The translations under genes were made by a program, and so were the position numbers. 64,000 bases of DNA from a virus: positions 61,615 to 125,614 of IMG/VR virus record IMGVR_UViG_3300009514_000006. One strand, 5' to 3'. This document shows, one piece after another, positions 27,744-44,260 of the stretch; the stretch's first letter is position 1; each line of letters begins with the position of its first letter. Below the pieces are notes generated by a model. It was not told the DNA's origin. It made no database searches and saw nothing but the letters and a program-made list of their open reading frames with translations.

Positions 27744-28661
27744 TTACTTTCTCCACCCCTTTAAATCATTCAGCTTGGATCGTAGAGACTTATTCATCCA
27801 CCTAGCATATAACACCTTCTGGGTGGGGTTCATACGAGTATCGCCAGCTTCTATTTGTTCAGGGGTCTTTCCTACTACTTCTAGTAGAAACTGTTTCTCT
27901 TTATCAGAGGCTGTATGGAAGGTTCTAGGAGCTGTGCGCTGGAGACTCTGCCCCAGCCCCTTGATCAACGATGCAGCATTCCAAGATTTTTCTACCTCTT
28001 TTAGCTTTGAATAATAATCTTGATCCTCAGTAAGATGGTCCATCGCAATCTCAGTAGCTATGGACCTATCAGAAGTGTGCTCAAGTTCTACTTTAACTCC
28101 CTCATCCAATTTATCTTGGTCAAAGTCAGACGGACTTTTACCATCAGCAAGACCGCCAGGAATGGCATCTGCTTTCTGAGTAATCTCTTCCTCTTCGTGC
28201 CACTGTCTACCCACTTCAGGCAGATCCGGCGTGACAGAACCAGCGGCACCAGGATGCTTTGCTGTGGCGAGTCTCTGCTGGGCGACCACATCCTGTTCTT
28301 CGTCCACCACAGGCATAGATCCCATGGCTACATCTGCTTTTTCCATTCGGACAATATCGCAGCCTAGAGAACAACTTTTGAGAAGCTTATTAGCCTCCCA
28401 TACTTTGTCCCTATCGTTTGCTTTCACCAAGGAGAACTTACCGTCCGGTATGTAGCTAAAGTAGTACAAATCATCTTTAGAAGACTTAACAATGCCTCTA
28501 AACACATTGTTCATAACACCATAACGAACGGACTCTGGGACAACACCGTTCTTGATAGACTTATGAACAATAGCAACTTCAGTCATCCTGTTAGAAGGAG
28601 ACAACGAAGTATAATAGTCCATAATGGACTCATCTGTATTATTTACTTTTTGTTCAGCCAT
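27744..28661 (-). CDS. Head-associated protein with DUF5661-like domain
   Basis: IPGGLADG...GVKVELEHT...EIAMDHLTED.DYYSKL. Confidence 0.75.
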   Translation of the reverse strand: MAEQKVNNTDESIMDYYTSLSPSNRMTEVAIVHKSIKNGVVPESVRYGVMNNVFRGIVKSSKDDLYYFSYIPDGKFSLVKANDRDKVWEANKLLKSCSLGCDIVRMEKADVAMGSMPVVDEEQDVVAQQRLATAKHPGAAGSVTPDLPEVGRQWHEEEEITQKADAIPGGLADGKSPSDFDQDKLDEGVKVELEHTSDRSIATEIAMDHLTEDQDYYSKLKEVEKSWNAASLIKGLGQSLQRTAPRTFHTASDKEKQFLLEVVGKTPEQIEAGDTRMNPTQKVLYARWMNKSLRSKLNDLKGWRK

Positions 28662-30346
28662 TCTTTTAAACTTTCCATAGATCTCTTAAAAGGTACAGGT
28701 TTACCAGGTTTTGGAGAATTTATTGGTGGCCGAGAAAAATTAGAACCCGTACCTGGGTCGCCTATGCCCTCTCTTCTCCCCGGAATAAGCTGCCCCACGG
28801 CAGCAGCCGTTGGACCAACGGTACCACCAGGGTCACCCAAGCCAGCCCCCATAGCGTACGCTGTACCAAGAGTAGGCAACTTAACTGCCCAAGGATTATC
28901 CTTACTTGTAGAGCTAGATTCCTTTTCCTTAGGAGACTTATCCTTCTCTTCAGGATCATCTCCCGGCAAATCAAGATGTTCCGGGGCCTGTGCTTGAGGG
29001 TCCGGGGTCTGTGCTTGAGGGTCCGGAGTCTGTGCTTGAGGGTCCGGGGCCTGTGCTCGGGGTGCCTCTTTAGCTGCTCTAGTGGCCTGTTCGACTTTTT
29101 GCCTCTGCCTCTCTGCCCAGGGAATATTTCTTTGTTGTTCGTTAAAATTGGTAGGAGGGTCACGAAGAGGCAACATGTCCTCTAGACCAGCACCGGGACG
29201 AGAAGAAGCTTGGGACCTAGACGGAACCAAATGCGTAGGAGGCGGAGGAAGGGGCTCTGCCTGCTGTTGCGGGGCCTGTGCTCGGGGTGCCTCTTTAGCT
29301 GCTCTCAACGGTAAACGATCCGTATCAAAGGGCGCCTGAAGAGGAAGACGACTAGTATTGAAGGGACCCGACGGAGGCGGAGGAAGGGGCTCTGCCTGCT
29401 GTTGCGGGGCCTGTGCTCGGGGTGCCTGTGGTTTAGCTACGGTTATTTTTTGTCTAGCTCCTGCTACTCTCTGCTGTCGCATCGAAGAAGCGGGTTTCTT
29501 GCCCGCCATAACAGGAGACGCAGTAGGAGCACGAGGCTTAGTAGGAGCCGCAGTAGGAGCACGAGGCTTAGTAGGAGCCGCAGTAGGAGCACGAGGCTTA
29601 GTAGGAGCCGCAGTAGGAGCACGAGGCTTAGCAGGCGCCGCAGTAGGAGCACGAGGCTTAGCAGGCGCCGCAGTAGGAGCCGCAGTAGGAGCACGAGGCT
29701 TAGCAGGCGCCGCAGTAGGAGCCGCTGCTACGGGTTCCCGGGGTTTTCCCGTTCCCTTAGAAACATCAAACATCCATCCAAGTGACTTATGCGTTTCCTC
29801 GTCTTCACCGTCTTTAACTTCTGGCGAAGACGCTATTTGATAACCAAGAGAACGAGATGGTTTATCTTCTTTTTCATCCCTATACTCTTTTATCTTATCG
29901 AGGGCTTTACCAAGCTTACCTGGATTGGTCTGTACCCTAGTGGCAGCTCTTTCCACGGTCGGCCCAGCCTCAGTATCACCATATTCAAAATCACTCTGTC
30001 CTGGCTTGCGAGAAGTAGTAGAGACACGAGATCTACCTGCTACGTCCACAGGAGAGGGAGAAAGGGGCGCCTTAAGAGGCAGTCTATCTATGATATTCTT
30101 CGACACACTATTAGGAGAAACACGATGCCCTTCAACGGATATAGAGGCTTGGTAAGAGCAAAGCTTACCAGCCCCGTGCTTGTGCCCGCACTGAGGGCAC
30201 TTAGCTCCTTTAATGTCATTACCACCCACAGGCCCGCCCATCATCTCTTCCTTCAGCCGGGAGGCTACGGCCTTAGGGGGTTTGACCCCCTTCTGCATGT
30301 CGGCCATGTTGATAAACTTAGCGGACTTTTGAGTGGGTGACTTCAT
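28643..30346 (-). CDS. Disordered Pro/Ala-rich protein with Zn knuckle and tandem repeats
   Basis: CPQC...C near N-terminus; (PTKPRAPTAA)n, (PDPQAQT)3, duplicated PRAQAPQQQAEPLPPPP. Confidence 0.65.
   Translation of the reverse strand: MKSPTQKSAKFINMADMQKGVKPPKAVASRLKEEMMGGPVGGNDIKGAKCPQCGHKHGAGKLCSYQASISVEGHRVSPNSVSKNIIDRLPLKAPLSPSPVDVAGRSRVSTTSRKPGQSDFEYGDTEAGPTVERAATRVQTNPGKLGKALDKIKEYRDEKEDKPSRSLGYQIASSPEVKDGEDEETHKSLGWMFDVSKGTGKPREPVAAAPTAAPAKPRAPTAAPTAAPAKPRAPTAAPAKPRAPTAAPTKPRAPTAAPTKPRAPTAAPTKPRAPTASPVMAGKKPASSMRQQRVAGARQKITVAKPQAPRAQAPQQQAEPLPPPPSGPFNTSRLPLQAPFDTDRLPLRAAKEAPRAQAPQQQAEPLPPPPTHLVPSRSQASSRPGAGLEDMLPLRDPPTNFNEQQRNIPWAERQRQKVEQATRAAKEAPRAQAPDPQAQTPDPQAQTPDPQAQAPEHLDLPGDDPEEKDKSPKEKESSSTSKDNPWAVKLPTLGTAYAMGAGLGDPGGTVGPTAAAVGQLIPGRREGIGDPGTGSNFSRPPINSPKPGKPVPFKRSMESLKEWLNKK
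29515..29725. repeat. 30-bp coding tandem repeat
   Basis: gcagtaggagcacgaggcttag(t/c)agg(a/c)gcc units, about 6 copies with partial insertions. Confidence 0.9.
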
Positions 30347-31211: not shown

Positions 31212-31475
31212 CTAGATTACAATTCGGCTATTATTACTATCGCTCTCACTGAGGAGTGTGCGTATCTCAGGGTGCGGAGTAAAATGAGAATAATGGTTGC
31301 CCAAAGCTTGGCGCCATTGTTGGACCCGTTGTCGGGTTACCTGAAACTCCTGTGCAATCTGGGGCATTGCTACGCCCTTCTGAAAGGAGTCTATTAGGTA
31401 ATTGAATTTCTCAAGACCGTGCTTTTTAATCAAATTACGAGCCAATTTACTTGGCTTAGTTCCCTTTTGCATCAT
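31212..31475 (-). CDS. HTH DNA-binding protein
   Basis: MPQIAQEFQVTRQRVQQW. Confidence 0.75.
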   Translation of the reverse strand: MMQKGTKPSKLARNLIKKHGLEKFNYLIDSFQKGVAMPQIAQEFQVTRQRVQQWRQALGNHYSHFTPHPEIRTLLSESDSNNSRIVI

Positions 31476-31481
31476 GAAAGC

Positions 31482-31510
31482 ACCATATCAAAAGCAAATT
31501 GCCATGTCAA
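31482..31510 (-). promoter_or_regulatory. Sigma70-type promoter TTGACA-N17-TATGGT with extended TG
   Basis: Counted spacing of 17, just upstream of the HTH gene. Confidence 0.75.
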
Positions 31511-31596
31511 CGTAAATATGTAGGACAGTGTCAGATAAGTCCTACACCAATTTGCCCTAATGACTAATCTTGGTCGCACACTTATTTACGAAATTA

Positions 31597-31810
31597 CTTG
31601 ACAACGAAGAATCACCCGAAAACCTCAACAATATCAACTAATAGTAAAATACTTAAAATAGTTCTTGACAACGACTTTTCCAAAAAACCCAATGATATTC
31701 GCAAATAACAACGATTTGACACAGCAAGAGCAAAAGGGTGCCGAATTTCTCCATGATAACATTGGGTTGCATTTTTCACTTGACAACCAAAAAAACGTGT
31801 GTTTTATCAT
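31597..31810 (+). promoter_or_regulatory. Four TTGACA boxes; the last precedes a TATCAT
   Basis: CTTGACAACGA at 31597 and 31664, TTGACA at 31716, CTTGACAACCA at 31779; TATCAT at 31805 (spacer 19). Confidence 0.55.
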
Positions 31811-31811
31811 T

Positions 31812-32150
31812 AGGGGGTGAAAGGGGTGTGAGTGATGGGCTGTGGTGAAACAAGTGGTAAAGAAGTTTCTATATAGCACACATTCACTACTTTACTAAAA
31901 AACTCACCCTATGAAGCGAAGCTTCTGGACTGGCTGATAAGCCAGTCAATGTGAATAAGTGAAACTGTGGTTCACTTATGTGTTTTTAAGCAGAGATCTG
32001 TCTTGAGATCAAGACAAGAGATCTGAGCCACTAAAAACCCCTCAGCCCCTTTGATTACCCTCAGCCCATATGAGGACTAGGCGCCTTCGGCGCCCAGATG
32101 TGCTTCGCACATCAGGGAATTAGTTATTCTGTTTTCTGAGGGGGAGTGGG
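31812..32150 (+). ncRNA. Candidate structured ncRNA or structured origin
   Basis: At least 7 adjacent hairpins, a long-range cccctcag/ctgagggg pair, G-U wobbles favouring the plus strand. Confidence 0.5.
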
Positions 32151-32160
32151 TGCCTAGGAG

Positions 32161-32421
32161 CTAGACAACTTCAACTGTGGCCCACACACCCGTTGGGGTG
32201 AAGATCAGGGCGCAGTCGTCTTCATCAATGACTAAGTCTCCTACTGAGACTCTTTTAGGTCTAAGTAGAACAGCTTCGCTGTGGTCATCCGGTTTAGCTA
32301 TTTTAGTGGTAATTTGAGACTTATAAGACGCCTCAATAGTTCCAACTTCTGTGTAGTCGTCTAAGGAGACTTTACTGGGAGCACGGGGCTCACCTTTTCT
32401 GTAGAATACTGTGTAGATCAT
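32161..32421 (-). CDS. Hypothetical protein
   Basis: 86 aa, overlaps the primase stop. Confidence 0.55.
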   Translation of the reverse strand: MIYTVFYRKGEPRAPSKVSLDDYTEVGTIEASYKSQITTKIAKPDDHSEAVLLRPKRVSVGDLVIDEDDCALIFTPTGVWATVEVV

Positions 32422-33443
32422 TTGATTTTCCTTTGTAGCTTCCAGAGCCAGTAGTCTCCAGAGTCTGTGTAGATTGCTGTGTCAAGAGTTTCCTTGAGCC
32501 AAGGTTTAAGCTCTGGATATTGTAGCACAAGTCCGGGGTCTAGCTTCAGCTTACTTTCCTCTGGGAAGGGAATTATGTATACTGAAAATAGGTGGGCTAA
32601 CTTGTCTGCTGCGTCTTGAATGTCCTGATGGGCGTCAGGGTCCCAAGCAAAGTATACATTCTTGATTTTGTGCTTCTGAAGTAGTTCGATTTGGCTTGTA
32701 GATATTTTCTTACCAAAAGTGCACACAGCCGGGACCCCTACACTCAGGTACCCTAGTGCGTCGAAGACTCCCTCTACGATTACTATTGTGTCTTGTTCTT
32801 TGAGTTGGTCTAGGGGCCACAGCCACTGTTTGATATTCTCTGAGGATACGTACTTTGGGTCCTTATCAACTATACAGCGCCCCTGATAGGCCACTGTCAG
32901 CCCGAAATAATTGACGGGGAAAAGAACGTAGGGACCAGAGTGTCCTCTTAGGGAGCCAACCATAGCTAACTGGCGCTCCTTTATAATCTCTTCGCTGAGA
33001 CCTCTTTTTAGGAGGTAGTTGTACGCGCGGGTGCCGGTAACACCCTCGAAAGGTTCCGTCTGGGGCAGAGAGACTGTATCTATAGGTTCGGGTGCATCTA
33101 ATGTTTTATCTGGCTTAATTTTGTCTTGAACAGCACTTTCAAACTCGTTCTCCTTTTTCGCTGGAGACACAGTCTGGGCTAGTTCTATTTTAATGTCATT
33201 AAGGTGGCGACCACTAACTTCGGCCATCAGCCTACAGATGTCTCTGATGCCCTTCCCGAACCCACACCTCTGGCAATAGAACAATTTTTTCTCTACGCTA
33301 ACATAGAGTTTGCTCTTATCATTCAGGCATACGGGGCACACCCTTATTCGTATTTCTCCATCATTACGAAAGGTTATCTCCGTGTAGTCATTTAACCAGG
33401 ACTCTAAATCTAGGTCTTCTAATGCTTCTTCTAACTTAGCCAT
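32418..33443 (-). CDS. DnaG-type DNA primase
   Basis: CPVC...CQRC Zn finger, YLLKRG, TOPRIM IVEGVFDA...TFGK...AWDPDA. Confidence 0.9.
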   Translation of the reverse strand: MAKLEEALEDLDLESWLNDYTEITFRNDGEIRIRVCPVCLNDKSKLYVSVEKKLFYCQRCGFGKGIRDICRLMAEVSGRHLNDIKIELAQTVSPAKKENEFESAVQDKIKPDKTLDAPEPIDTVSLPQTEPFEGVTGTRAYNYLLKRGLSEEIIKERQLAMVGSLRGHSGPYVLFPVNYFGLTVAYQGRCIVDKDPKYVSSENIKQWLWPLDQLKEQDTIVIVEGVFDALGYLSVGVPAVCTFGKKISTSQIELLQKHKIKNVYFAWDPDAHQDIQDAADKLAHLFSVYIIPFPEESKLKLDPGLVLQYPELKPWLKETLDTAIYTDSGDYWLWKLQRKIK

Positions 33444-33496: not shown

Positions 33497-33766
33497 ATGT
33501 TGTTAGCCCTGACAGTCCTAAAAGTCTTTGCATTCGGCGTCATGATTGACGTTGCTTTTGTTTTGTGGACTTTAGGGGCTACCAGAGGGAGCTATATCCG
33601 TGCCGGTACCTTTTCCGTGCTCACGTCGATACCGTCTGTGTTTGGGTACATTGAGATCTTCGATAATAGGTGGATGGCTATACCTTGGTTTTTCGGCTTG
33701 TTCATTGGGACAATAGTGGGGATAAAAATAGATGAACTCATTAGTAAGCGTAGTAGCCAAGAGTAG
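33497..33766 (+). CDS. Small multi-TM membrane protein
   Basis: 89 aa, three hydrophobic segments. Confidence 0.6.
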   Translation: MLLALTVLKVFAFGVMIDVAFVLWTLGATRGSYIRAGTFSVLTSIPSVFGYIEIFDNRWMAIPWFFGLFIGTIVGIKIDELISKRSSQE

Positions 33767-34253
33767 CTTAGTCCTATTATTTTCGTGTTCTTTCGACACC
33801 AGCGGTTATCCTAGCGACGGAAGACCCAGCACTGTTACTGATTCTTCTATGATGGACGCTCGTGAGATGACGAGTATCCACCTAGCTGGTAGACTCTACT
33901 ACCACAACAACACAACCACCAGCTGTATCAATGCAGAAGAAGTAGATCTTACCCTAATTGCAAACTCTACTCCTCCTAGAATGATCGAGTATCCTTGGGA
34001 TCATTACACATGTGGAGATATAAGCGTAGTGGGGGACACCTTCCACCTTCAGTGCCTCTACTATGACTGTATATACATATATGATAGTTGTTTGTTTCCT
34101 TTTGTGCGTAAGCTAACATTCCAATTAAGCAAAGAAAACAACTATTCGGGGATAATTTGGATTAGGCTAGAAGATACTAGCGAGCAATATGACGGACCAT
34201 ACTGGTTCTGTGACAGCTTCTTTAAAGTAAAAGGTGTTCCATTTTTTGATTAG
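33732..34253 (+). CDS. Putative lipoprotein
   Basis: Hydrophobic N-terminus ending LLFSC. Confidence 0.45.
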   Translation: MNSLVSVVAKSSLVLLFSCSFDTSGYPSDGRPSTVTDSSMMDAREMTSIHLAGRLYYHNNTTTSCINAEEVDLTLIANSTPPRMIEYPWDHYTCGDISVVGDTFHLQCLYYDCIYIYDSCLFPFVRKLTFQLSKENNYSGIIWIRLEDTSEQYDGPYWFCDSFFKVKGVPFFD

Positions 34254-34267
34254 AAAGTAGGTTACTA

Positions 34268-34699
34268 ATGCACATTAATGTTGAAAAGATTAATAAAGTG
34301 TTACTGTTTGTCGCAGCCGCGCTATTTTTGTTCTTGGTAGTGTTTATCAGTACTGGGTGCTCGGATGATAAAGGAGAACCAGCAGACCCTATCGAAAACG
34401 GAGAAGCATGCGACTCTGACTCAGAGTGCCTTGGTGGGTGGTGTGTGACCGAGCTTACTGATCCTCAAGGAACACGGTCTATCGCCTTCCCTGGTGGTAT
34501 GTGTAGCTCTGGTTGTGACTTTGAGGACGAAACTAGCTGTGCCGAGGACGAGATCTGTGTAAGGTATAACCCCACAGGAGAGATGCTCTGCCTTGTTCTC
34601 TGTGAACGACCTTCTCAATGTCGCACAGACGAGGGCTACGCCTGTACTTCCTTGTCCTTCTTTGGTCCAAACGCTTGCTTTCCTCCCATTGGAGGCTAA
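34268..34699 (+). CDS. Cys-rich lipoprotein
   Basis: Signal ending ISTGC; 12 further Cys in C..D.EC, PGGMCS, C...C patterns. Confidence 0.75.
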   Translation: MHINVEKINKVLLFVAAALFLFLVVFISTGCSDDKGEPADPIENGEACDSDSECLGGWCVTELTDPQGTRSIAFPGGMCSSGCDFEDETSCAEDEICVRYNPTGEMLCLVLCERPSQCRTDEGYACTSLSFFGPNACFPPIGG

Positions 34700-34775
34700 G
34701 TACTTAATTTCTTTGAGAATTACCTAAGGTAGGGTACACTTGTAGGGTTATTTAACTTTCTACAAGGAGCCTATC

Positions 34776-35429
34776 TTGCGTAAGTCACTAATTTTATTAG
34801 CTTATATTGTATCCTTGTTCAGTTTCTCTTGTATCAGACCCTCGGCCGAGGTTCCTCGGCCTATCACTGAAATTTCTTTTATGAAGGTCTGTTGGGACGG
34901 GGATCGGGTGGTTTATCCTGTTGACAATTTTAATCAGGTAGCCCCCACTTGTCCAAATCCTGTGGAAATTGACTGGGGTGAGGGAAGTCTTCCAATTCGC
35001 ATTAACTCAGAGATCCCAGATCCAGCCATCGAATTGGCCATGATGGTGTGGAATGAAACAGTTGGTTTTGAGCTGTTTGTCCCCGGTAAAATTGGGTGGG
35101 ATATGATAATCACGCTGGCACCCAGTCCGGGAGAGAAAGAAAGCGGGGCCGTAGCCCTGGCCGGTACTGTCCATTTTAAGGACCATGGTCATTTGGGGGC
35201 CATCATATTTGCCTACGAGACTATGGGTGAGCTAGATGGGTACCAAAGGATACAAGTCTATGTACACGAACTTGGTCATGTGCTAGGTTTAGGGCATGAT
35301 GTAAACGATGTGCATTCTCTTATGTATCCGGCGCCTCCTTTAGGTGACATTGGTAGCTTAACCCAACTAGACATAGAGGCAGTTAAGAAGAAATATGGAA
35401 GAACCAGCAAAAAGGTGTCAAAAAATTAG
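34776..35429 (+). CDS. Metzincin (matrixin/M10-like) lipoprotein peptidase
   Basis: Signal ending FSFSC; HELGHVLGLGH plus Met-turn SLMYP. Confidence 0.85.
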   Translation: MRKSLILLAYIVSLFSFSCIRPSAEVPRPITEISFMKVCWDGDRVVYPVDNFNQVAPTCPNPVEIDWGEGSLPIRINSEIPDPAIELAMMVWNETVGFELFVPGKIGWDMIITLAPSPGEKESGAVALAGTVHFKDHGHLGAIIFAYETMGELDGYQRIQVYVHELGHVLGLGHDVNDVHSLMYPAPPLGDIGSLTQLDIEAVKKKYGRTSKKVSKN

Positions 35430-35571
35430 CCATGACAATCTCGCTCCTGGATTCGGATGTTGCCAGTGCGCTACGTATAATGTTATCAATCGGCATAAGT
35501 GCCGGTATTGTGGGCATATTCCTTGTTATACAGAGATAGAGATTATTGACAGATCTTAAAGGTGTCTCACA

Positions 35572-35772
35572 ATGTCTGCTGCGTACAAGGGATGTTGGCG
35601 TTGCTGGACTAATTGTCTGTTTTATAGGTGGTTTGATGACTCCCCGTGTTGGGGAGAGGTTCCTCACATGAGGGATTCTTCATGTGAGGTCCACCTGTGC
35701 GAAGGACATGCAAAGGCGTATTCTACTGGAGAGTTCTACGTAGAGCGTAAAAAAGAGGTGAACAATGACTAA
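35572..35772 (+). CDS. Small Cys-rich hypothetical protein
   Basis: 66 aa, overlaps amidase start and contains its SD. Confidence 0.4.
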   Translation: MSAAYKGCWRCWTNCLFYRWFDDSPCWGEVPHMRDSSCEVHLCEGHAKAYSTGEFYVERKKEVNND

Positions 35773-36625
35773 AGGTATTTCAGATCTAGCGAATCAAACA
35801 AAGAAGAAGTGGAAGGGAAAGCAACGACCTAAAGGTTGGGTTGGTAATGTATTTGGGCTTGTTGTCCACACAACTGGCGGAGGTCTCCCTGCCAAGGCTC
35901 TTAAGCGTAACGAGAACCCAGTAGATACCGCTGTAAACTTCTACAACACAAATCATGGAACTCATTATGTTATTGGTTGGGATGGTGACCTAGTTCAAAT
36001 AGCTACTGAAGATATGGTGGCTAACGGAGTAGGGGTCACCAATAAAGACCCAAAGATTAACCAAATATTGTCCGTAGCGCGAGGTTGGGAAAACGACCTT
36101 CCAAAAGCCATGGTTGACCGATGGAAGAAAAGGTGGCCCAAGTATAAGACACCTCTACAACTGTTCCCTACTAAGTATGCAAATAGCTGTTATGTTCATG
36201 TTGAATGTATTCCCTGTATTTTTTACGAAGCAAATAAGCTGATAACATCTGCGACTCCTATGGGAGGAAGCCTTCGCTTCACTGAAGCCCAGCACAAAAA
36301 AGTAGCCGAGCTAGCTTGTGATATAGCAAAGAGAAACGGATGGGAAGGGGAGTGGTGGAAAACTCCTCGATTGGTTGGGCACGAGGATATTACTCCAGTG
36401 TCCAGGAGCACCTCTACAGGTGGTTGGGATCCCGGTTGGCTCCGGGCCACGCCTTACTTTGACTGGGATTTTGTCTATTCCGAAATCGACAAGATCGTGA
36501 ATCCGGTCACAGTGGTAATTGACCAAACACCGGAGTCTGTTTCAGAACCCACTCAAGAGACGGATTCAGTGAATCCATTACTTGCTTTTTTGGCGGCTAT
36601 ATGGGCGAAATTAAAAGCAAAATAA
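35765..36625 (+). CDS. N-acetylmuramoyl-L-alanine amidase (Amidase_2) endolysin
   Basis: VVHTT, HYVIGWDG, HVEC, FTEAQ, VGHEDI, DPG; C-terminal amphipathic LLAFLAAIWAKLKAK. Confidence 0.85.
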   Translation: MTKGISDLANQTKKKWKGKQRPKGWVGNVFGLVVHTTGGGLPAKALKRNENPVDTAVNFYNTNHGTHYVIGWDGDLVQIATEDMVANGVGVTNKDPKINQILSVARGWENDLPKAMVDRWKKRWPKYKTPLQLFPTKYANSCYVHVECIPCIFYEANKLITSATPMGGSLRFTEAQHKKVAELACDIAKRNGWEGEWWKTPRLVGHEDITPVSRSTSTGGWDPGWLRATPYFDWDFVYSEIDKIVNPVTVVIDQTPESVSEPTQETDSVNPLLAFLAAIWAKLKAK

Positions 36626-36644
36626 ATATAATTTAATTTTTTAC

Positions 36645-36673
36645 TTGCAAACAGTTTTCTTTCGGCATAGACT
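36645..36673 (+). promoter_or_regulatory. Sigma70-type promoter TTGCAA-N17-TAGACT
   Basis: Counted spacing of 17, AT-rich UP region, heads the plus-strand fibre cassette. Confidence 0.65.
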
Positions 36674-36707
36674 CTTAAGTGGTTGGTGATGGTTGGGGTG
36701 ATAAGAG

Positions 36708-37310
36708 TTGCCGAAATATACGAAGATCTTAGATAGAAATGGCGAAAATGAAGCCGTAGTAACGCCAATAGGGGAAGTCCTTGTCACAGGTAATTTTTCT
36801 ACCTCTGATCAGGCTAACCCTACCAGCGCAGGAGATATACTTCACGGGTCCGTTGAGCTTGCAGGCAGTGACGACCTCCGTGTGGATGGCACCTCTCCAA
36901 AAGTTTTCTCGTTTCTTAGTGATCCTAGCTCTAGTATAGACCTATATATTCGTGATATAAGGTTTATATTAGTTAGCAAACATATAGATCCTTCGGGTGC
37001 CAGTTTCGGTCCTATTCCTTCCTTAACAAATGGTTTGCTCTTTGAACTCCAGACCGATGGGGTTTCTAAAACCATTGCAAACTTCAAAATAACTGAAGAC
37101 TTTCTACGGACTGTGTCTAATCCAGAGTCCGATCCAATTAACAGATCCGGAGCATATGATACCCTCACGGCTATATATGATTATGGGGGAGGCTTAAGTT
37201 TAAAAGGGGGTACAAGTGATTTCGTCAAGGTCACTGTGCGGGACGACTTAAGCCTCCCCCAACTCCTATATTTTACCTGCTCCGTGACAGCTACAAAGGT
37301 GGCAGTCTAA
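36708..37310 (+). CDS. Virion accessory protein, shared N-terminal peptide family
   Basis: N-terminus nearly identical to 41432; body paralogous to 1296..1892. Confidence 0.7.
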   Translation: MPKYTKILDRNGENEAVVTPIGEVLVTGNFSTSDQANPTSAGDILHGSVELAGSDDLRVDGTSPKVFSFLSDPSSSIDLYIRDIRFILVSKHIDPSGASFGPIPSLTNGLLFELQTDGVSKTIANFKITEDFLRTVSNPESDPINRSGAYDTLTAIYDYGGGLSLKGGTSDFVKVTVRDDLSLPQLLYFTCSVTATKVAV

Positions 37311-37909
37311 TGCCCACTCATATCGAATTTCCAGCTGGTCACGAACCGTCCACATTAAGGGCTCACTTTCAAGAGGGGTTAGTTACCCGTGCCGATGATC
37401 TTAGCATAAATATTCGATTAGGTCACTTCATTATTGGGTCTAATCACATAAAATATTTGGGAGCGGTTGACCAACCTGTAGTAGACGATACCCTTAATTA
37501 CGTCTATCTAAACTCTGCCGGTGTTCTTCAGATCAACCAAACTGGATTTCCTTTAGCTAATCCGCACATACGACTAGCCCGGGTAAGTGCTAGTAACGGT
37601 ATTATCTGTGCTGTGATAGACGAGCGGGAGCTAATGACCTCAGGTCTGGGGTTTCTTGGATCTATTAAAGCCGGAAAATTAATACCAGGTAATTTTAGCG
37701 GGAATCCTAAAACAGCATCGGTAACATTTGGTACTTCCCTTATAGATACAGAATATACCATTACTTGGGGCGTAGAAGCGATCAATAACCAATCATTTTT
37801 AGTTAGTTTTGAGAACAAGACCATAAATGGTTTCACGGTAAACTTAAATACAAATAATTTAGCAGACTTTGCCCTGCTCACATGGCAAGTGATCCCCATA
37901 GGAGAATAA
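37310..37909 (+). CDS. Fibre-associated protein with C-terminal H-lectin/gp53-like domain
   Basis: SVTFGTSLIDTEY.I...NKTINGFTV...LTWQVI. Confidence 0.55.
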   Translation: MPTHIEFPAGHEPSTLRAHFQEGLVTRADDLSINIRLGHFIIGSNHIKYLGAVDQPVVDDTLNYVYLNSAGVLQINQTGFPLANPHIRLARVSASNGIICAVIDERELMTSGLGFLGSIKAGKLIPGNFSGNPKTASVTFGTSLIDTEYTITWGVEAINNQSFLVSFENKTINGFTVNLNTNNLADFALLTWQVIPIGE

Positions 37910-37912
37910 TCA

Positions 37913-39097
37913 ATGGCAATAAGAATCAATGGTATAGTGTATGATGAATTAGCAGCCGACCCAGGTACTCCTGCTGAAGGAGAATCTTGGTATAATACTA
38001 CTGAAGATAGGTTAAAAGTATTTGCCAATGGAACAGTACAAGTTGTTGCGTGGGATTCGGAGCTAACATCTCATGAAAATGATACCGGAAATCCGCACAG
38101 TGTTACGTTAGAACAGGCCAGAACTGCTGGTAATGCTGTAATTGGCCAAATAGACATGGGTAATAATAAAATTATCCAGGTTGCTAATGGTACTGCTTCT
38201 ACCGATGCTGTGAATGTTAGCCAATTGATTGATGCTATCACTGCAGCAGGTCTTGGGGATGAGTGGCAGAATTCTGTCCTCGATAAAGACTTGGCTACAG
38301 CACCAGGCTCTCCAAATCCAGGAGACAGATATATCATTGCAGGTACAGGAGGGTTGTGGTCTCCCTTTAGTGTTAATGATATTGTCGAATGGAATGGTTC
38401 TGTTTGGGAGCTAAAGCACACCCCTAATGAGGGGTCTACTACTCGTGTTGATGACGAGAATAAAACCTATCAGCACAACGGTTCCAGCTGGGAGATCTTA
38501 GAGCTAACTCAAGATCATGGTAACTTAATTGGTTTAGGGGACGATGATCATACTCAATATCTCCTGATTAACGGTACCCGAAACATGTCGGGCAACCTCA
38601 ACATGGGCACGTTTCAAATAACTAACGTGGGTAATGTTGACGGCGTCGATGTATCAGATCATAGTGCCCGTCATGAAAGCGGTGGTTCAGACGAGGTTGA
38701 TGGAGATATTCTTGACATAGATTTTGTTCCTGCTAATTATGCCCGGACTACAGCGCCTACAGAAGTTAGCGCACTAGTACATCTTACTGCTCACTTAGCG
38801 GGCATAGATACTGCCATCGGTGACCTTGGTTCGGAAGTTAATTCCCTTGTACATAAGTCCGGAGAGATACTTCCTGGTTCTTTTGTTGGCTCTACAGCTG
38901 TGGTTACTTTTTCTGCGTCCTTTTCAGACGCTAATTACTCCCCTACAGCAATAGCAGAAACTTCAGGAGGTAAAGCTTACCTACTGACTTGTGAATCGAT
39001 TACCTCAGGTAGCTTTGTCATAAACAAAAATTCTTCATCAACATCTGGTTTGACTAAAGTTAGATGGACAGCTATTAAACACGGAGAATCTAACTAG
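37913..39097 (+). CDS. Modular fibre protein (YadA-like stalk motif, DUF2793-like, H-lectin-like C-terminus)
   Basis: NKIIQVANGTASTDAVNVSQL; DKDLATAPGSPNPGDRYII...EWNG.VW; HGNLIGLGDDDHTQY. Confidence 0.75.
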   Translation: MAIRINGIVYDELAADPGTPAEGESWYNTTEDRLKVFANGTVQVVAWDSELTSHENDTGNPHSVTLEQARTAGNAVIGQIDMGNNKIIQVANGTASTDAVNVSQLIDAITAAGLGDEWQNSVLDKDLATAPGSPNPGDRYIIAGTGGLWSPFSVNDIVEWNGSVWELKHTPNEGSTTRVDDENKTYQHNGSSWEILELTQDHGNLIGLGDDDHTQYLLINGTRNMSGNLNMGTFQITNVGNVDGVDVSDHSARHESGGSDEVDGDILDIDFVPANYARTTAPTEVSALVHLTAHLAGIDTAIGDLGSEVNSLVHKSGEILPGSFVGSTAVVTFSASFSDANYSPTAIAETSGGKAYLLTCESITSGSFVINKNSSSTSGLTKVRWTAIKHGESN

Positions 39098-39104
39098 GTG
39101 ACCA

Positions 39105-39872
39105 ATGCCCCAATTTATTGATTCCATTGGTTTTGACAATCTAACGATTGATCCGGTCTCCCCTACTAATGGAGAGATATGGTTTAATACTACTGCAAAT
39201 GAATTTAGAACCTTTGTTAATGGTGTTGTAATTTCTTTGAATGATCCTCGTGTGTCAAACAATGACACTACTCCTGCTCCTCTATTTACTAAACTCATAG
39301 CAGGGTCTAATGTTCTTCTTGAAGAAGTTAATGATGGGGGGAATGAAAAGTTACGTATAAATGCAGCAGGTAATGGTGTAGGTGATGGTAGGTTCACCAT
39401 TGACGTAGCAGCCATGTTGGCTAAGCAGGATGACAACCCAGATGATGTGAACAAAGTTGTTATAAATGGTTTTCCAGGACTAAAGATTAAGCACAGTAAA
39501 ACAGCTTTTGGTATATCAGGTCTCTATCTCATAGGCGGCGGTACCTCTCTTACTGTAACCGCCAAGTTCATTTTGAGGGACAGCCATGCAGGAACAATCG
39601 TAAGGCTTGCAGCCAGGGCAAAGGTTAGGAGCACCGGAGAGAATACCAGCACAGGATTTGACGCAGAAAATTTTGTTCCCATTACGGTGAACTCAACTAC
39701 TATTGGTGAGGTTTTTGAAGGTACCATAGTTCTTCCTATTACCGTATCAGATAACGATGCCGTAGCTTTGCATGTTGGTCGAGACGGAAAAAACCTGATT
39801 GCAGGCGCCGGTGCTCCTGACGACTTTGGTAAACCTATCGTTATAATCGCAGTTGAAATGAGAGTTTCCTAA
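39105..39872 (+). CDS. Fibre-associated protein
   Basis: DPVSPTNGEIWFNTT motif as in 37913; VSNNDTT..L..KLIAG motif as in 3586..7446. Confidence 0.65.
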   Translation: MPQFIDSIGFDNLTIDPVSPTNGEIWFNTTANEFRTFVNGVVISLNDPRVSNNDTTPAPLFTKLIAGSNVLLEEVNDGGNEKLRINAAGNGVGDGRFTIDVAAMLAKQDDNPDDVNKVVINGFPGLKIKHSKTAFGISGLYLIGGGTSLTVTAKFILRDSHAGTIVRLAARAKVRSTGENTSTGFDAENFVPITVNSTTIGEVFEGTIVLPITVSDNDAVALHVGRDGKNLIAGAGAPDDFGKPIVIIAVEMRVS

Positions 39873-40771
39873 TGGCTATTGAATATTACCAAAAACGAAT
39901 TAAGACTGTTCCTCCCACAGTCACCGATTGCTCAAATAATGGATATGAGGTTGGTTGTGACTGGATTGACGCAACAACAGGTATTGAATACGTTCTTGTA
40001 GACAGTACTCCTGGCGCCGCAGTTTGGCGAGAACGAACCAATAGCGAAACTGTTTTACTGTCTGAAAAGGGCGTGGCAAATGGTGTGGCTACCCTAGATG
40101 GTTCTGCGAAGATACCTGACACACAAATACCAGACTCCATAGCTAGAGACTCCGAGCTTCATTCTCATACCAACAAAGCTCAATTGGACCTGGTGACAGA
40201 TGGTGATCATGACGTCCGAACAGATAACCCCCACGTAGTAACAGCGGCACAAGTAGGCAACACCACAGCCCAATGGAACGCTAATAAAATACAGGGAAAG
40301 ACAGTAGATGATGCTGCTATCGGTAATAATAAAGTTCTGATGTATAATTTATCGGGAGATAAAATAGTATACAGCAGCTCTCTTCCCGTAGCTCCTGGAC
40401 AACATAGATTGGTGGTGGACACTACCACTACTAGTCAAACTTATGTAAATTTAATGACTGTTAACAGAGTAACGGGTGCAAATCGTGTTAAAGTAACTGT
40501 AGCAGTTGCGTGTAGTCAAACGAGTGACAGAAAACCTGTTTTCTATAGGTTCACACTAGACGGAGTCTCTAAAGGCGGTATGACCGTATCTACTGCTAAT
40601 AAAGAGTGGTCTGAGTGTGGTTACTTCTTGTTTCTCACAGACCCCTTAACTGCTGCATCTCATGAATTTAAGGTTGAGTGGAGAGTGGATAGTAACGAAG
40701 GGCAAATTCGACCTGTGGCTAGACCTGATACTGAGTTTTTTGTGATGATGCTTGAAGAGGTGGCCTCCTAA
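39872..40771 (+). CDS. Tail fibre-like protein
   Basis: KGVANGVATLDGSAKIP and NPHVVTAAQVG fibre motifs. Confidence 0.7.
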   Translation: MAIEYYQKRIKTVPPTVTDCSNNGYEVGCDWIDATTGIEYVLVDSTPGAAVWRERTNSETVLLSEKGVANGVATLDGSAKIPDTQIPDSIARDSELHSHTNKAQLDLVTDGDHDVRTDNPHVVTAAQVGNTTAQWNANKIQGKTVDDAAIGNNKVLMYNLSGDKIVYSSSLPVAPGQHRLVVDTTTTSQTYVNLMTVNRVTGANRVKVTVAVACSQTSDRKPVFYRFTLDGVSKGGMTVSTANKEWSECGYFLFLTDPLTAASHEFKVEWRVDSNEGQIRPVARPDTEFFVMMLEEVAS

Positions 40772-41361
40772 TGTCCACACCTACTAAATATAGCTATACG
40801 ATTTCTACTGATTTCAATTCTGGAAAGGTATCGGGAGAGGGATTAAAGAAAGAAATACAAAATAGCGACATAACCACAGAACTGTACTATGTGGAAACAA
40901 TAGGCGATATCTGTAATATTTTATTTGCAGAGGAGTTATCCCCGGGTGACTTAACTCTGTTAGATGGTGGATCTTCCCCGCCCACAAGCACTAGTATAAT
41001 AGGGAAACATTTTCCGCTTAAGTATACTAGGATTGTTGAGATTGATAAAAAAACTGACCTCATCATATCTAATGGGTTTACATATTCTAGTAAACAATTT
41101 TCTTTATCTATTCAGGCCCAGTCTAAGATGACCGCTGCGTACCAGCTTAAAGATAATCCTGCACTGGTATACCCTATAGAATGGAACACAATTGACGATT
41201 CTGATTCGTATTCAATCATAGATTCTTCTGATTTAAATAGCTTCTATCTAACTGCTATTGGGACTATTCGAGCCATATTGGACTCTGGGACAAACCTTAA
41301 GAAACAGATTAGAGAAGCCACTACTGTCTCTGAGGTAAATGCGATAGTAGATAATAGATAG
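40771..41361 (+). CDS. DUF4376-like fibre assembly protein
   Basis: GFTYSSKQFSLS...EWNTID...LKKQIREATTVSEVNAI. Confidence 0.65.
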   Translation: MSTPTKYSYTISTDFNSGKVSGEGLKKEIQNSDITTELYYVETIGDICNILFAEELSPGDLTLLDGGSSPPTSTSIIGKHFPLKYTRIVEIDKKTDLIISNGFTYSSKQFSLSIQAQSKMTAAYQLKDNPALVYPIEWNTIDDSDSYSIIDSSDLNSFYLTAIGTIRAILDSGTNLKKQIREATTVSEVNAIVDNR

Positions 41362-41367
41362 AATCTA

Positions 41368-41397
41368 TTGACATACATACTTTTTATCTGGTAAAGT
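41368..41397 (+). promoter_or_regulatory. Sigma70-type promoter TTGACA-N18-TAAAGT
   Basis: Counted spacing of 18. Confidence 0.6.
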
Positions 41398-41431
41398 TTG
41401 TGGACCTGGTGTATGCTCTGAGCGTACCCCC

Positions 41432-42061
41432 ATGTCCGCATATTATAAGATCCTTGACAGAGACGGCGAGAATTCGTCCGTAGTTACACCCGCCGGAGAG
41501 CTACTGGTTAAGGGCTCCGTGGTGGTTGGCGGCAGCTCTGTCGCAGTGGGGCTGGACTATGTAAAATCGAGTATTTCGGCCGACCAGTATTTCCTACTCA
41601 TTGATCTAGACAATCAAGGGGGTGGGGGCCCCTACAAGCACTCAGGCTCCGGAGGAGTAAAGTTTCACTGGGTGCATGGCCACTTGATCAAGAGTAAACA
41701 GCAGGCCGAGTGGAATGTTGTACTATTAGTTGTATTGGATATTGATGGGACGGATGCTACTTTAGCTGCATTAGAATTTAGCTCGTTGCACTCTGAGGAT
41801 ACTCTTAAATATGAGTCTTCTATAACGCAGAGTGTAACTCCTCATGTACTCGATTTAACTGTATCAGGATCCTCACTGGCTTTTTTGACAGTGGGGGACA
41901 TCCGGACAGGTGTTGTCGAAGTAAATACTTCAAGCACCTTAAAGGATGTTGCAGGTAATGACGTAGTCCCTAGTGTGGGCGATGTCCTTGTCCTGGTAAA
42001 AAAGGGTACAGGTTCAGGGACAGCTAAATTCCACTACACCCTAATATATGAGGTAAGCTAA
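41432..42061 (+). CDS. Virion accessory protein, paralogue of 42062..42778
   Basis: YFLLIDLDNQGGGGPYKH versus YYMFIDVDNQAGAGPYKH; both end YEVS. Confidence 0.7.
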   Translation: MSAYYKILDRDGENSSVVTPAGELLVKGSVVVGGSSVAVGLDYVKSSISADQYFLLIDLDNQGGGGPYKHSGSGGVKFHWVHGHLIKSKQQAEWNVVLLVVLDIDGTDATLAALEFSSLHSEDTLKYESSITQSVTPHVLDLTVSGSSLAFLTVGDIRTGVVEVNTSSTLKDVAGNDVVPSVGDVLVLVKKGTGSGTAKFHYTLIYEVS

Positions 42062-42778: not shown

Positions 42779-42783
42779 GACTA

Positions 42784-44251: not shown

Positions 44252-44260
44252 GGTGTAGAA

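What the first reader, a model, noticed from the sequence alone, without database searches (positions are those of the whole stretch)
31812..32150. Hairpin-dense ~340 nt element with its own antisense promoter: candidate new phage ncRNA or origin
Seen: back-to-back stems gctgtggtgaaac/gtttctatatagc (11 of 13 pairs, two G-U), gaagc-GAA-gcttc (31913), gactggct-GATA-agccagtc (31928), ataagtgaa/ttcacttat (31955), gtcttg-agat-caagac flanked by agagatct repeats (about 32000), ggcgcc-TTC-ggcgcc (32080), gatgtgc-TTC-gcacatc (32097), and a long-range cccctcag/ctgagggg pair. A TTGACA...TATCAT lies just upstream on the plus strand, opposite to all flanking genes. Inference: G-U pairs favour a plus-strand RNA. 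It resembles no class I recognise. Proximity to the primase makes an origin the alternative.
Basis: partly seen in the sequence, partly recalled or inferred. Interest (0 to 1): 0.75.

Follow-up and report, generated by a model that had tools for sequence, protein, structure and literature searches.

The report
Mirror-image DNA mini-hairpin cluster beside primase
An uncultured large phage has a one-off 685-base gene-free insert next to its primase gene, holding four TTGACA repeats and a mirror-symmetric cluster of very stable small hairpins; it most likely marks where DNA copying is primed, but a small RNA plus terminator zone is almost as likely and nothing has been tested at the bench.

Summary
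The stretch folds far better than shuffles on both strands, as RNA and as DNA (z about -6 to -7). It is the most hairpin-dense 340-nt window in the 125.6-kb phage record.

The element sits in a 685-bp non-coding gap (31476-32160) between the primase operon and an HTH gene that opens the head module. Relatives with 36-45% primase identity keep the gene order but have only 40-200 bp there.

Two features stand out:
- Four of the genome's nine C-GNA-G triloop hairpins, all with GAA loops, fall within 370 bp (simulated P about 2e-5).
- They are laid out in mirror image. The stable loops lie on the + strand in the left arm and on the - strand in the right arm. Both hairpin pairs share a dyad centre at about 32012.

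Upstream lie four same-strand (C)TTGACA(AC) repeats in AT-rich DNA. Only the last has a -10 box, with a poor 19-nt spacer.

There is no Rfam hit, no homologue elsewhere, no covariation data and no expression data.

Best reading (about 0.38): a single-stranded-DNA priming or origin signal like RSF1010 ssiA/ssiB or the G4 origin. Close rival (about 0.30): a roughly 170-nt plus-strand sRNA facing the primase-operon terminator.

This scan has noted similar mirror mini-hairpin clusters in other phage genomes.

The parts
31476..32160 (.). Whole 685-bp non-coding spacer between the 86-aa gene and the HTH gene. It is lineage-specific.
   Evidence: ORF list. The only ORF above 60 aa (81 aa, minus strand) has an implausible translation and no family hit. 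Relatives have 40-200 bp at this junction.
31482..31510 (-). Sigma-70-like promoter of the HTH/head operon: TTGACA, 17-nt spacer, TATGGT, with a TG extension.
   Evidence: Relatives also carry a TTGACA promoter before the HTH gene.
31520..31545 (.). Hairpin GTAGGAC / GTCCTAC (7 bp, 12-nt loop), just upstream of that promoter.
   Evidence: Read from the sequence.
31597..31787 (+). Array of four same-strand repeats in 34%-GC DNA with A-tracts. CTTGACAAC lies at 31597, 31664 and 31779; TTTGACACA lies at 31715. Three copies of CC(C/T)AATGNTA are interleaved at 31686-98 (+), 31756-68 (-) and 31805-14 (-).
   Evidence: Four TTGACA within 190 bp on one strand: simulated P about 0.0016 per strand. Copies 1-3 have no -10 box at 15-20 nt.
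31780..31810 (+). Promoter-like site P4: TTGACA, 19-nt spacer, TATCAT.
   Evidence: It is not listed by the 16-18-nt consensus scan.
31814..31910 (+). Long imperfect hairpin domain H1, rich in G-U pairs. It is better on the + strand as RNA.
   Evidence: -32.7 (z -3.8) on + against -20.2 (z -2.1) on -; not significant as DNA.
31913..31925 (+). H2, GAAGC-GAA-GCTTC. The GCGAAGC mini-hairpin core lies on the + strand. This is the outer left hairpin, centre 31919.
   Evidence: It differs from the N4 P2 promoter hairpin GAAGC-GGA-GCTTC at one loop base.
31928..31947 (+). H3, an 8-bp stem with a GATA (GNNA) loop on the + strand. This is the inner left hairpin, centre 31937.5.
31955..31987 (+). H4, a 9-bp AU-rich stem with a 7-nt loop, followed by GTG and T5 (31983-87). 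It is terminator-like on the + strand.
   Evidence: It fails the consensus terminator scan because it has 2 G-C pairs and a 3-nt spacer.
31992..32024 (.). Central palindrome GTCTTG-AGAT-CAAGAC between two direct AGAGATCT copies, centre about 32008.
32033..32075 (-). On the - strand this part reads T5, preceded by two GGGCTGAGGG copies (direct repeat) and H6 (CCTCA/TGAGG, 7-nt loop). One CCCCTCAG copy (32038-45) pairs with CTGAGGGG at 32136-43.
   Evidence: T5 (31983-87) and A5 (32033-37) are symmetric about 32010.
32080..32094 (-). H7, GGCGCC-GAA-GGCGCC on the - strand, with the CCGAAGG core. This is the inner right hairpin, centre 32087.
   Evidence: CCGAAGG is the mini-hairpin core of RSF1010 ssiA.
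32097..32113 (-). H8, GATGTGC-GAA-GCACATC on the - strand, with the GCGAAGC core. This is the outer right hairpin, centre 32105.
32270..32282 (-). H9, ACAGC-GAA-GCTGT on the - strand, inside the 86-aa gene (codons H-S-E-A-V). It is the fourth member of the GAA cluster.
32161..32421 (-). 86-aa protein of unknown fold. It is conserved upstream of the HTH gene in all relatives examined, directly after the primase in two of them (L002, L006).
   Evidence: The AlphaFold model has pLDDT 86. There is no significant fold or family match.
32418..33443 (-). DnaG/T4 gp61-type primase with a Zn ribbon (CPxC...CxxC) and a TOPRIM domain.
31212..31475 (-). 87-aa HTH DNA-binding protein, conserved in the family. 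It is a candidate binder of the repeats.

Best explanation
The spacer is most likely a DNA-level replication or priming signal built from two modules.

Module A (31597-31810) is an AT-rich, A-tracted array of four same-strand CTTGACAAC-type repeats with a second short motif interleaved. I read it as binding sites for a DNA-binding protein and as an easily opened region. The conserved 87-aa HTH protein encoded next door is a candidate binder.

Module B (31913-32113, plus an outlier at 32270) is a dyad-symmetric set of short perfect hairpins. Their stable C-GAA-G or GNNA caps lie on the + strand in the left arm and on the - strand in the right arm.

Proposed mechanism: when the duplex is opened, by a helicase or by transcription running into it from either side, each displaced strand folds into its own mini-hairpins. 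These resist coating by single-strand-binding protein. They guide the adjacent DnaG/gp61-type primase, or its loader, to start one DNA strand per arm, so that synthesis leaves the element in both directions.

Shown here: the hairpins, their clustering, the mirror geometry, the repeats and the gene neighbourhood.

Inferred only: that the structures form in single-stranded DNA, that the primase reads them, and that replication starts here.
For: 1. C-GNA-G triloop hairpins with stems of 5 bp or more number 9 in 125.6 kb. Four of them, all with GAA loops and including the two longest stems in the genome, lie in 31913-32282. Simulated P of 4 of 9 falling within 370 bp is about 2e-5.
2. 1.17 Mb of phage DNA around related primase genes (80 IMG/VR loci plus six closer metagenome loci) holds 20 such hairpins, and never two within 400 bp.
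3. The stems differ in sequence while the loop and its closing pair stay constant. That is the pattern expected for a recognised structure.
4. Mirror layout: the midpoints of H2/H8 and of H3/H7 are 32012.0 and 32012.25. Both pairs are about 18 nt apart. The loop strand switches across the central palindrome.
5. All core hairpins are perfect Watson-Crick palindromes. They fold equally well on both strands and with DNA parameters (z -7.6 to -7.9 for 31910-31990).
6. Literature: d(GCGAAGC)-type mini-hairpins are extraordinarily stable as DNA. They occur at the DnaG-dependent origins of G4, St-1 and alpha3, as CCGAAGG in RSF1010 ssiA, and as GCGGAGC in N4 hairpin promoters (PMC13037366). RSF1010 oriV pairs an initiator-bound origin with two hairpin priming signals, one on each complementary strand (PMC8567376).
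7. The element lies 260 bp downstream of a primase gene. Its left half is among the most AT-rich 200-bp windows of the genome. That half carries a non-random direct-repeat array.
Against: - Nothing is conserved. Relatives at 36-45% primase identity lack the insert, and no closer relative exists in the databases searched. An essential origin inside a lineage-specific insert is not the most economical reading.
- GC skew follows gene strand only, with no step at 32 kb.
- There is one DnaA-box match and no cluster.
- The repeats are 51-67 bp apart and equal a perfect -35 hexamer. They may be promoter-related rather than iterons.
- The T5 runs at the inner end of each arm and the RNA-specific stability of H1 are better explained by transcripts.
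- The strand carrying each arm's GAA loops is also the sense strand of transcription entering that arm. The mirror layout therefore cannot separate RNA from displaced single-stranded DNA.
Confidence: 0.38

Rival explanations
1. Face-to-face transcription units. A plus-strand non-coding RNA of about 170 nt runs from P4 (start near 31817). It passes through H1-H3 and ends at H4 plus U5 (about 31988). It converges on the 3' end of the primase operon mRNA. That mRNA carries H9, H8, H7 and H6 and ends at the U5 run at 32037-32033 (minus strand), after the CUGAGGGG arm. The central palindrome separates the two. The RNA could act as an antisense or insulating transcript that keeps early primase transcription out of the late head operon.
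For: - P4 has a perfect -35 and a 5/6 -10 box directly before H1.
- H1 starts at the predicted 5' end. It is markedly better as plus-strand RNA (z -3.8 against -2.1) and not significant as DNA.
- On each strand the arm ends with a structure followed by a run of five U, symmetric about 32010.
- The site is a natural operon boundary. The HTH/head operon has its own promoter at 31510-31482.
- An accessory RNA fits a lineage-specific insert.
Against: - The 19-nt spacer lies outside the 16-18 nt seen at this phage's other promoter-like sites.
- TTGACA copies 1-3 have no -10 box.
- No hairpin in 31812-32150 passes the consensus terminator scan. The GC-rich hairpins H7 and H8 have no U run on either strand.
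- The minus-strand 'terminator' would close a 90-nt multi-branch.
- GAA triloops have no special stability in RNA tables, as far as I know, so their clustering is left unexplained.
- The phage's real convergent gene junction at 45.7 kb has no such cluster.
- There is no Rfam match and no homologue by covariance model in 1.23 Mb of related loci.
Confidence: 0.3
2. A double-stranded DNA regulatory or architectural region. The TTGACA and CCAATGATA repeats act as operators for the neighbouring HTH protein, or as decoys for sigma region 4. The palindromes act as protein-binding or cruciform sites. Together they would control the early-to-late switch, or possibly packaging recognition upstream of the head module.
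For: - Two repeated motifs are interleaved directly upstream of a conserved HTH gene.
- Relatives carry TTGACA promoters with short palindromes on both sides of the HTH gene.
- A-tracts suggest DNA bending.
- The position at the head of the structural module is where pac or cos sites often lie (my own knowledge).
Against: - The HTH protein gives only generic HTH matches (HTH_23/28, resolvase HTH, weak sigma region 4). There is no terminase small-subunit signature.
- No large terminase was found near it or anywhere in the record.
- Operator models do not need eight hairpins or strand-specific GAA caps.
Confidence: 0.13
3. N4-type single-stranded hairpin promoters. H2 and H8 are read in extruded form by a hairpin-specific polymerase, giving divergent transcripts or primers that start 5' of each hairpin, near 31908 and 32122.
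For: - N4 virion RNA polymerase promoters are 5-7-bp stems with 3-nt loops. The polymerase contacts -11A/G, -10G, -8G and +1C (PMC4496689).
- The N4 P2 hairpin is GAAGC-GGA-GCTTC (PMC13492108).
- H2 has the same stem with a GAA loop. By my mapping onto the sequence, both H2 and H8 place C at +1 and carry the four contacted bases.
Against: - No T7/N4-like RNA polymerase family was found in the record, though that search did not ring in any control genome.
- The giant ORFs are tail fibres.
- The head is of the Herelleviridae type (major head protein phrog_752).
- The four-A ruler before the N4 hairpin is absent.
- Given the GCGAAGC core, only the +1C is an extra coincidence, at about 1 in 16 for both hairpins.
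- H7 and H9 fail at -8 or +1.
- The record is 77% complete, so absence of the polymerase is not proven.
Confidence: 0.05
4. A decayed insertion, such as a remnant of a mobile element or a moron, with no present function.
For: - It is lineage-specific extra DNA at a junction that is compact in relatives.
- A rearrangement lies nearby: an inverted plus-strand cassette at 33.5-45.7 kb.
Against: - It has no terminal inverted repeats or target duplication, and no second copy in the genome.
- The 20-nt hairpin probe gave no hits in IMG/VR or GTDB genomes and only two unrelated chance hits in metagenomes.
- It has no coding remnant.
- Decay does not produce perfect palindromes, a 2e-5 loop cluster or exact mirror spacing.
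Confidence: 0.07

Closest known systems
oriV of IncQ plasmid RSF1010: RepC iterons, an AT-rich region and the priming signals ssiA/ssiB read by primase RepB'
   Same: - A direct-repeat array and AT-rich DNA sit beside two hairpin signals placed once each on complementary strands.
- The ssiA hairpin is capped by the same CCGAAGG mini-hairpin as H7.
- A dedicated primase gene lies in the replicon.
   Different: - RepB' is an archaeo-eukaryotic-type primase. This one is DnaG/gp61-type.
- ssiA and ssiB are near-identical 40-nt inverted repeats. Here the two arms share architecture but not sequence, and each has 3-4 hairpins.
- The repeats are 9-12 nt at 51-67-bp spacing rather than tandem 20-mers.
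- No initiator or helicase has been identified.
- The replicon is a large dsDNA phage, about 160 kb by the completeness estimate.
DnaG-dependent complementary-strand origins of phages G4, St-1 and alpha3, and G4-type plasmid ssi signals
   Same: - Clustered hairpins include a d(GCGAAGC)-type mini-hairpin that stays free of SSB and directs a DnaG-type primase.
- The primase here is of the DnaG/TOPRIM class.
   Different: - Those signals act on a packaged or transferred single strand and are one-sided.
- This element sits in a double-stranded phage and is two-sided.
- There is no sequence similarity beyond the 7-nt cap.
Coliphage N4 early promoters (hairpin promoters of the virion RNA polymerase)
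   Same: - 5-7-bp stems, 3-nt G(A/G)A loops closed by C:G, several copies in a short gene-free stretch.
- H2 shares the whole P2 stem.
   Different: - No virion RNA polymerase was found.
- The flanking ruler sequence is absent.
- N4 promoters all face one way at a genome end. These face outward from a dyad.
T4 ori(uvsY)/ori(34) and the T7 primary origin (transcript-activated phage origins)
   Same: Promoter or promoters next to an easily unwound or structured region, in a phage with a gp61-like primase. This rests on my own knowledge and was not tested.
   Different: Those origins have functional promoters of known class and no mini-hairpin cluster. Here only one weak promoter-like site exists.

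Membership tests
Any Rfam RNA family | Covariance-model score at or above the family's gathering threshold | tested here: not met
   There were 0 hits at gathering over the whole window. The best sub-threshold hit was sroH at 18.6 bits against a threshold of 80, and it lies in the repeat array rather than in the hairpins. No tRNA or tmRNA was found.
Sigma-70 promoter driving the element (plus strand) | -35 and -10 hexamers separated by 16-18 nt | tested here: inconclusive
   P4 is TTGACA / 19 nt / TATCAT. It is not reported by the consensus scan. Copies 1-3 have no -10 box.
Intrinsic (rho-independent) terminator | GC-rich stem of 5 bp or more, followed within 0-2 nt by a T run | tested here: not met
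   No site within 31812-32150 on either strand. H4 has 2 G-C pairs and a 3-nt spacer. H7 and H8 have no T run.
ssi / G4-type primase-dependent priming signal | Stable hairpin or hairpins with a GNA mini-hairpin cap on the template strand | tested here: met
   The GCGAAGC or CCGAAGG caps sit on stems of 5-7 bp. They match the motif described in PMC13037366.
ssi / G4-type primase-dependent priming signal | Strand-specific priming by primase on SSB-coated single-stranded DNA | not testable with these tools
   This needs an M13-based ssi assay or in vitro priming.
RSF1010-type oriV | Two priming signals, one on each complementary strand | tested here: met
   GAA/GATA caps lie on the + strand at 31913-47 and GAA caps on the - strand at 32080-113. 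They share a dyad at about 32012.
RSF1010-type oriV | Tandem iterons bound by a replicon-encoded initiator | tested here: inconclusive
   Four 9-12-nt direct repeats are present, but spaced 51-67 bp apart. No initiator was identified. The HTH protein matches only generic families.
Chromosome- or lambda-type origin | DnaA-box cluster or a GC-skew switch | tested here: not met
   One perfect DnaA box lies at 31950, of five in the genome. The skew tracks gene strand only.
N4-type hairpin promoter | 5-7-bp stem, 3-nt loop, with -11A/G, -10G, -8G and +1C | tested here: met
   H2 and H8 meet all four positions. H7 fails at -8 and H9 fails at +1 (mapping of the sequence onto).
N4-type hairpin promoter | A cognate hairpin-specific virion RNA polymerase is encoded | tested here: inconclusive
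   PF00940 was not found, but that search rang in no control genome. The giant ORFs are tail fibres. The record is 77% complete.
MITE or other mobile insertion | Terminal inverted repeats, target-site duplication and multiple copies | tested here: not met
   No second copy in the genome or in related loci. Probe searches gave chance hits only.
TnpB/IscB guide RNA (omega-RNA) | An adjacent TnpB- or IscB-like nuclease gene | tested here: not met
   The neighbours are a primase, an 86-aa protein and an 87-aa HTH protein. No ORF of suitable size borders the element.

The most novel reading that the evidence does not exclude
Large double-stranded DNA phages may share a so-far undescribed kind of bidirectional origin. 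In it, a phage DnaG/gp61-type primase is aimed at strand-specific C-GAA-G DNA mini-hairpins arranged in mirror image around a dyad. This would be the dsDNA-phage counterpart of RSF1010 ssiA/ssiB and the G4 origin, possibly opened by transcription entering from both sides. This element would be one instance. Unchecked notes from this scan report similar clusters in unrelated phages.
Probability: 0.3. Interest if true: 0.75.

Novelty: new variant of a known kind. Interest (0 to 1): 0.55.

Why it matters
Replication origins of most large uncultured phages are unknown, and GC skew often fails to find them, as it does here. A compact structural signature would give a sequence-only way to locate where such phages start DNA synthesis. 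That signature is a mirror-image cluster of C-GNA-G mini-hairpins beside a primase gene. It would also give a defined substrate for studying how DnaG/gp61-type primases are recruited to structured single-stranded DNA. If the element instead encodes an RNA, it is an sRNA of no known family, sitting at the early-to-late boundary of a divergent relative of Herelleviridae-type phages. Either result can be tested with a 685-bp clone and one purified protein.

Tried and rejected
**Searches for homologues**
- Rfam at gathering and at E<=10: nothing credible. ARAGORN: nothing.
- blastn of the spacer against 50,697 phage records: no match.
- The spacer against related loci and the rest of the genome: no match better than E=0.12.
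- The primase in IMG/VR by single sequence found nothing. By alignment it found only relatives at 31% identity or less. The protein database gave a best relative at 44-45% identity. Close-relative covariation analysis was therefore impossible.
- A second contig carrying the identical primase (L007) is 100% identical over 2.8 kb and gives no variation.
- The 20-nt hairpin probe: none in IMG/VR or GTDB genomes, and two unrelated chance hits in metagenomes.
- A covariance model of the left arm found only itself in 1.23 Mb.

**Expression**
- Sequencing-run search: none was listed and no RNA holder was listed, so there is no expression evidence either way.

**Origin signals**
- GC skew and DnaA boxes gave no origin signal.

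**Other readings checked**
- Small ORFs in the spacer: no family hits, and the 81-aa ORF has an implausible translation.
- Packaging reading: no Terminase_6N in the record. The 567-aa protein has no phage homologue by tblastn.
- T7/N4-like RNA polymerase: PF00940 not found, but that control failed.
- The 86-aa neighbour was folded (pLDDT 86), and Foldseek and VIA-align gave only weak matches (best Z 4.5). The row naming SPO1 gp33 is in fact the RNA polymerase epsilon chain.
Full report
**Setting**

The window is the last 64 kb of a 125,614-bp IMG/VR virus record, classed as linear and about 77% complete. Genes from 1 to 33443 run on the minus strand.

The finding lies in a 685-bp gap with no credible ORF, 31476-32160. 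To its right are a 341-aa Zn-ribbon/TOPRIM primase (32418-33443) and a conserved 86-aa protein (32161-32421). To its left is a conserved 87-aa HTH protein (31212-31475). After that come cargo-like proteins, the portal, the protease and a Herelleviridae-type major head protein. The HTH/head operon has its own sigma-70-like promoter at 31510-31482.

Yes.

The 339-nt stretch folds far below dinucleotide shuffles:

| Parameters | Strand | z-score |
|---|---|---|
| RNA | + | -6.1 |
| RNA | - | -7.1 |
| DNA | + | -6.3 |
| DNA | - | -6.5 |

A genome-wide count of perfect hairpins (stem of 6 bp or more, loop 3-8 nt) makes this the densest 340-nt window in the record. It holds six distinct hairpins against a typical 0-1.

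The plus-strand TTGACA and TATCAT exist, but the spacer is 19 nt. This phage's other promoter-like sites use 16-18 nt.

**Anatomy**

The gap has two modules.

Module A (31597-31810) is AT-rich (34% GC) and rich in A-tracts. It carries four same-strand copies of (C)TTGACA(AC), at 31597, 31664, 31715 and 31779. Three of the four plus-strand CTTGACAA copies in the genome are here. Four TTGACA within 190 bp on one strand has a simulated P of about 0.0016. Three copies of a second motif, CC(C/T)AATGNTA, are interleaved. Copies 1-3 of TTGACA have no -10 box at any reasonable distance, so the array is not a simple set of tandem promoters.

Module B begins with H1 (31814-31910), a long imperfect hairpin rich in G-U pairs. 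It is clearly better as plus-strand RNA (-32.7, z -3.8) than as minus-strand RNA (-20.2, z -2.1). It is not significant with DNA parameters.

The core of module B follows:
- H2: GAAGC-GAA-GCTTC
- H3: 8-bp stem, GATA loop
- H4: 9-bp AU-rich stem, then GTG and T5
- A central palindrome, GTCTTG-AGAT-CAAGAC, between two AGAGATCT copies
- An A5 run, which reads as T5 on the minus strand
- Two copies of CCCTCAGCCC
- H6
- H7: GGCGCC-TTC-GGCGCC
- H8: GATGTGC-TTC-GCACATC
- A CTGAGGGG arm that can pair back to CCCCTCAG

**The discriminating features**

First, the loops. Hairpins of the form C-GNA-G with stems of 5 bp or more number nine in the whole genome. Four of them lie between 31913 and 32282. All four have GAA loops, and they include the two longest stems in the genome. 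Random placement gives four of nine within 370 bp with P of about 2e-5. In 1.17 Mb of phage DNA around related primase genes (80 IMG/VR loci plus six closer metagenome loci) there are 20 such hairpins, and never two within 400 bp. The stems differ in sequence while the loop and its closing pair are constant.

Second, the geometry. The GAA or GNNA caps lie on the + strand in the left arm (H2, H3) and on the - strand in the right arm (H7, H8, and H9 inside the 86-aa gene). The midpoints of the outer pair (H2/H8) and of the inner pair (H3/H7) are 32012.0 and 32012.25. Both pairs are about 18 nt apart. The T5 and A5 runs are symmetric about 32010, and the central palindrome is centred at 32007.5. 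The two arms share architecture but not sequence.

**What is known about such caps**

According to a 2026 review (PMC13037366), d(GCGAAGC)-type sequences form extraordinarily stable DNA mini-hairpins. The review lists three places where they occur:
- in hairpin I of the DnaG-dependent origins of G4, St-1 and alpha3;
- as CCGAAGG in ssiA of the RSF1010 oriV;
- as GCGGAGC in N4 early promoters.

In RSF1010, the initiator RepC binds oriV and the helicase RepA unwinds in both directions. This exposes ssiA and ssiB, one on each complementary strand, where primase RepB' starts each leading strand just 3' of the hairpin (PMC8567376).

N4 promoters are 5-7-bp stems with 3-nt loops that extrude from supercoiled DNA (PMC4496689). 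The N4 P2 hairpin is GAAGC-GGA-GCTTC (PMC13492108), one loop base away from H2.

**Best reading**

The combination fits a DNA-level priming or origin signal best. That combination is perfect palindromes, clustered DNA-type caps, a strand switch across a dyad, a repeat array in AT-rich DNA alongside, and a DnaG/gp61-type primase gene 260 bp away.

With RSF1010-like polarity, primers would start in the central 130 bp and diverge. I put this at about 0.38. Only the sequence features are shown. Structure formation, primase recognition and initiation are inferred.

**Why not higher**

- Relatives keep the gene order primase, 86-95-aa protein, HTH, head genes. Most also carry an extra AAA ATPase gene after the primase. 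They have only 40-200 bp where this phage has 685.
- No closer relative exists in the collections searched. The only other contig with this primase is identical. Conservation and covariation therefore cannot be assessed.
- GC skew simply follows gene strand.
- There is one DnaA box and no cluster.
- The strand carrying each arm's GAA caps is also the sense strand of transcription entering that arm. The mirror layout is equally what two converging transcripts would show.

**The RNA rival (about 0.30)**

This reading is coherent:
- P4 starts a transcript near 31817.
- H1 forms a 5' stem that is RNA-specific and plus-strand-specific.
- H2 and H3 follow, and H4 with U5 ends the RNA near 31988.
- From the other side, the primase mRNA ends at the U5 run after CUGAGGGG.

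Its weaknesses are:
- the 19-nt spacer;
- three orphan TTGACA copies;
- the absence of any consensus terminator in the cluster;
- GC-rich hairpins without U runs;
- no explanation for the GAA caps;
- the fact that the phage's genuine convergent gene junction at 45.7 kb has no such cluster.

A mixed model is possible but untested. In it, transcription from both sides opens the duplex and the displaced strands fold, as at T4 R-loop origins.

**Lesser rivals**

- *Double-stranded operator, insulator or packaging region (0.13).* The HTH protein is only a generic HTH, and no terminase is nearby.
- *N4-type hairpin promoters (0.05).* H2 and H8 meet all four contacted positions. However, no cognate polymerase was found, and the giant ORFs are tail fibres.
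- *Decayed insertion (0.07).* There are no mobile-element hallmarks, and the order in the element is too high for decay.

**Relation to earlier notes**

This scan's unchecked notes describe similar mirror-image mini-hairpin clusters in several unrelated phage genomes, with the same closest analogue. One such cluster elsewhere was reassigned to a TnpB guide RNA. No nuclease gene borders this element.

**Verdict**

This is a real, statistically robust, structurally ordered element of unresolved function. It is a new variant of the hairpin priming-signal theme if the DNA reading holds, and an unclassified sRNA if not. Interest is 0.55.

Noticed in passing
window 31716-31727 (+) and 32474-32485 (-): A 12-nt exact inverted repeat, TTGACACAGCAA, brackets the hairpin cluster. 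One copy is the third TTGACA repeat and the other lies inside the 3' end of the primase gene. The chance expectation within 1 kb is about 0.06.
   Followed up: partly
L006:1064-1810: A relative (39% primase identity) has a 746-bp gene-free divergent gap about 4.7 kb upstream of its primase. The gap holds an 8-bp-stem GCGAAGC mini-hairpin (1269-1287), two further bare CGAAG cores and one CTTGACAAC copy on the other strand. It may be a counterpart at another position, but it is far less ordered.
   Followed up: partly
window 4383-4739: This is the second most hairpin-dense stretch of the genome, with five perfect 6-8-bp hairpins in 357 nt. It lies inside the 1286-aa ORF (3586-7446), which has no PHROG match.
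   Followed up: no
window 32161-32421 (-) and homologues in L002-L010: A conserved 86-95-aa protein always sits just upstream of the HTH gene and downstream of the primase, directly after it in the window, L002 and L006. The AlphaFold model is confident (pLDDT 86, small beta-rich fold with one helix), but no family or significant fold match was found.
   Followed up: yes
window 33497-45747 (+): A 12-kb plus-strand cassette is inverted relative to the otherwise minus-strand genome. It separates the primase from the upstream nucleotide-metabolism and replication genes (CobT, Thy1, UDG, AAA) that precede it in relatives. The 685-bp insert may date from the same rearrangement.
   Followed up: no
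window 28643-30346 (-), 567 aa: This protein occupies the position before the portal where a large terminase is usual. It has no Pfam, PHROG or phage tblastn match. No Terminase_6N was found anywhere in the 77%-complete record.
   Followed up: partly
window 32070-32123 (+): A 17-codon arginine-rich ORF (MRTRRLRRPDVLRTSGN) overlaps hairpins H7 and H8. It has no ribosome-binding site, so it is probably a by-product of the GC-rich palindromes.
   Followed up: no
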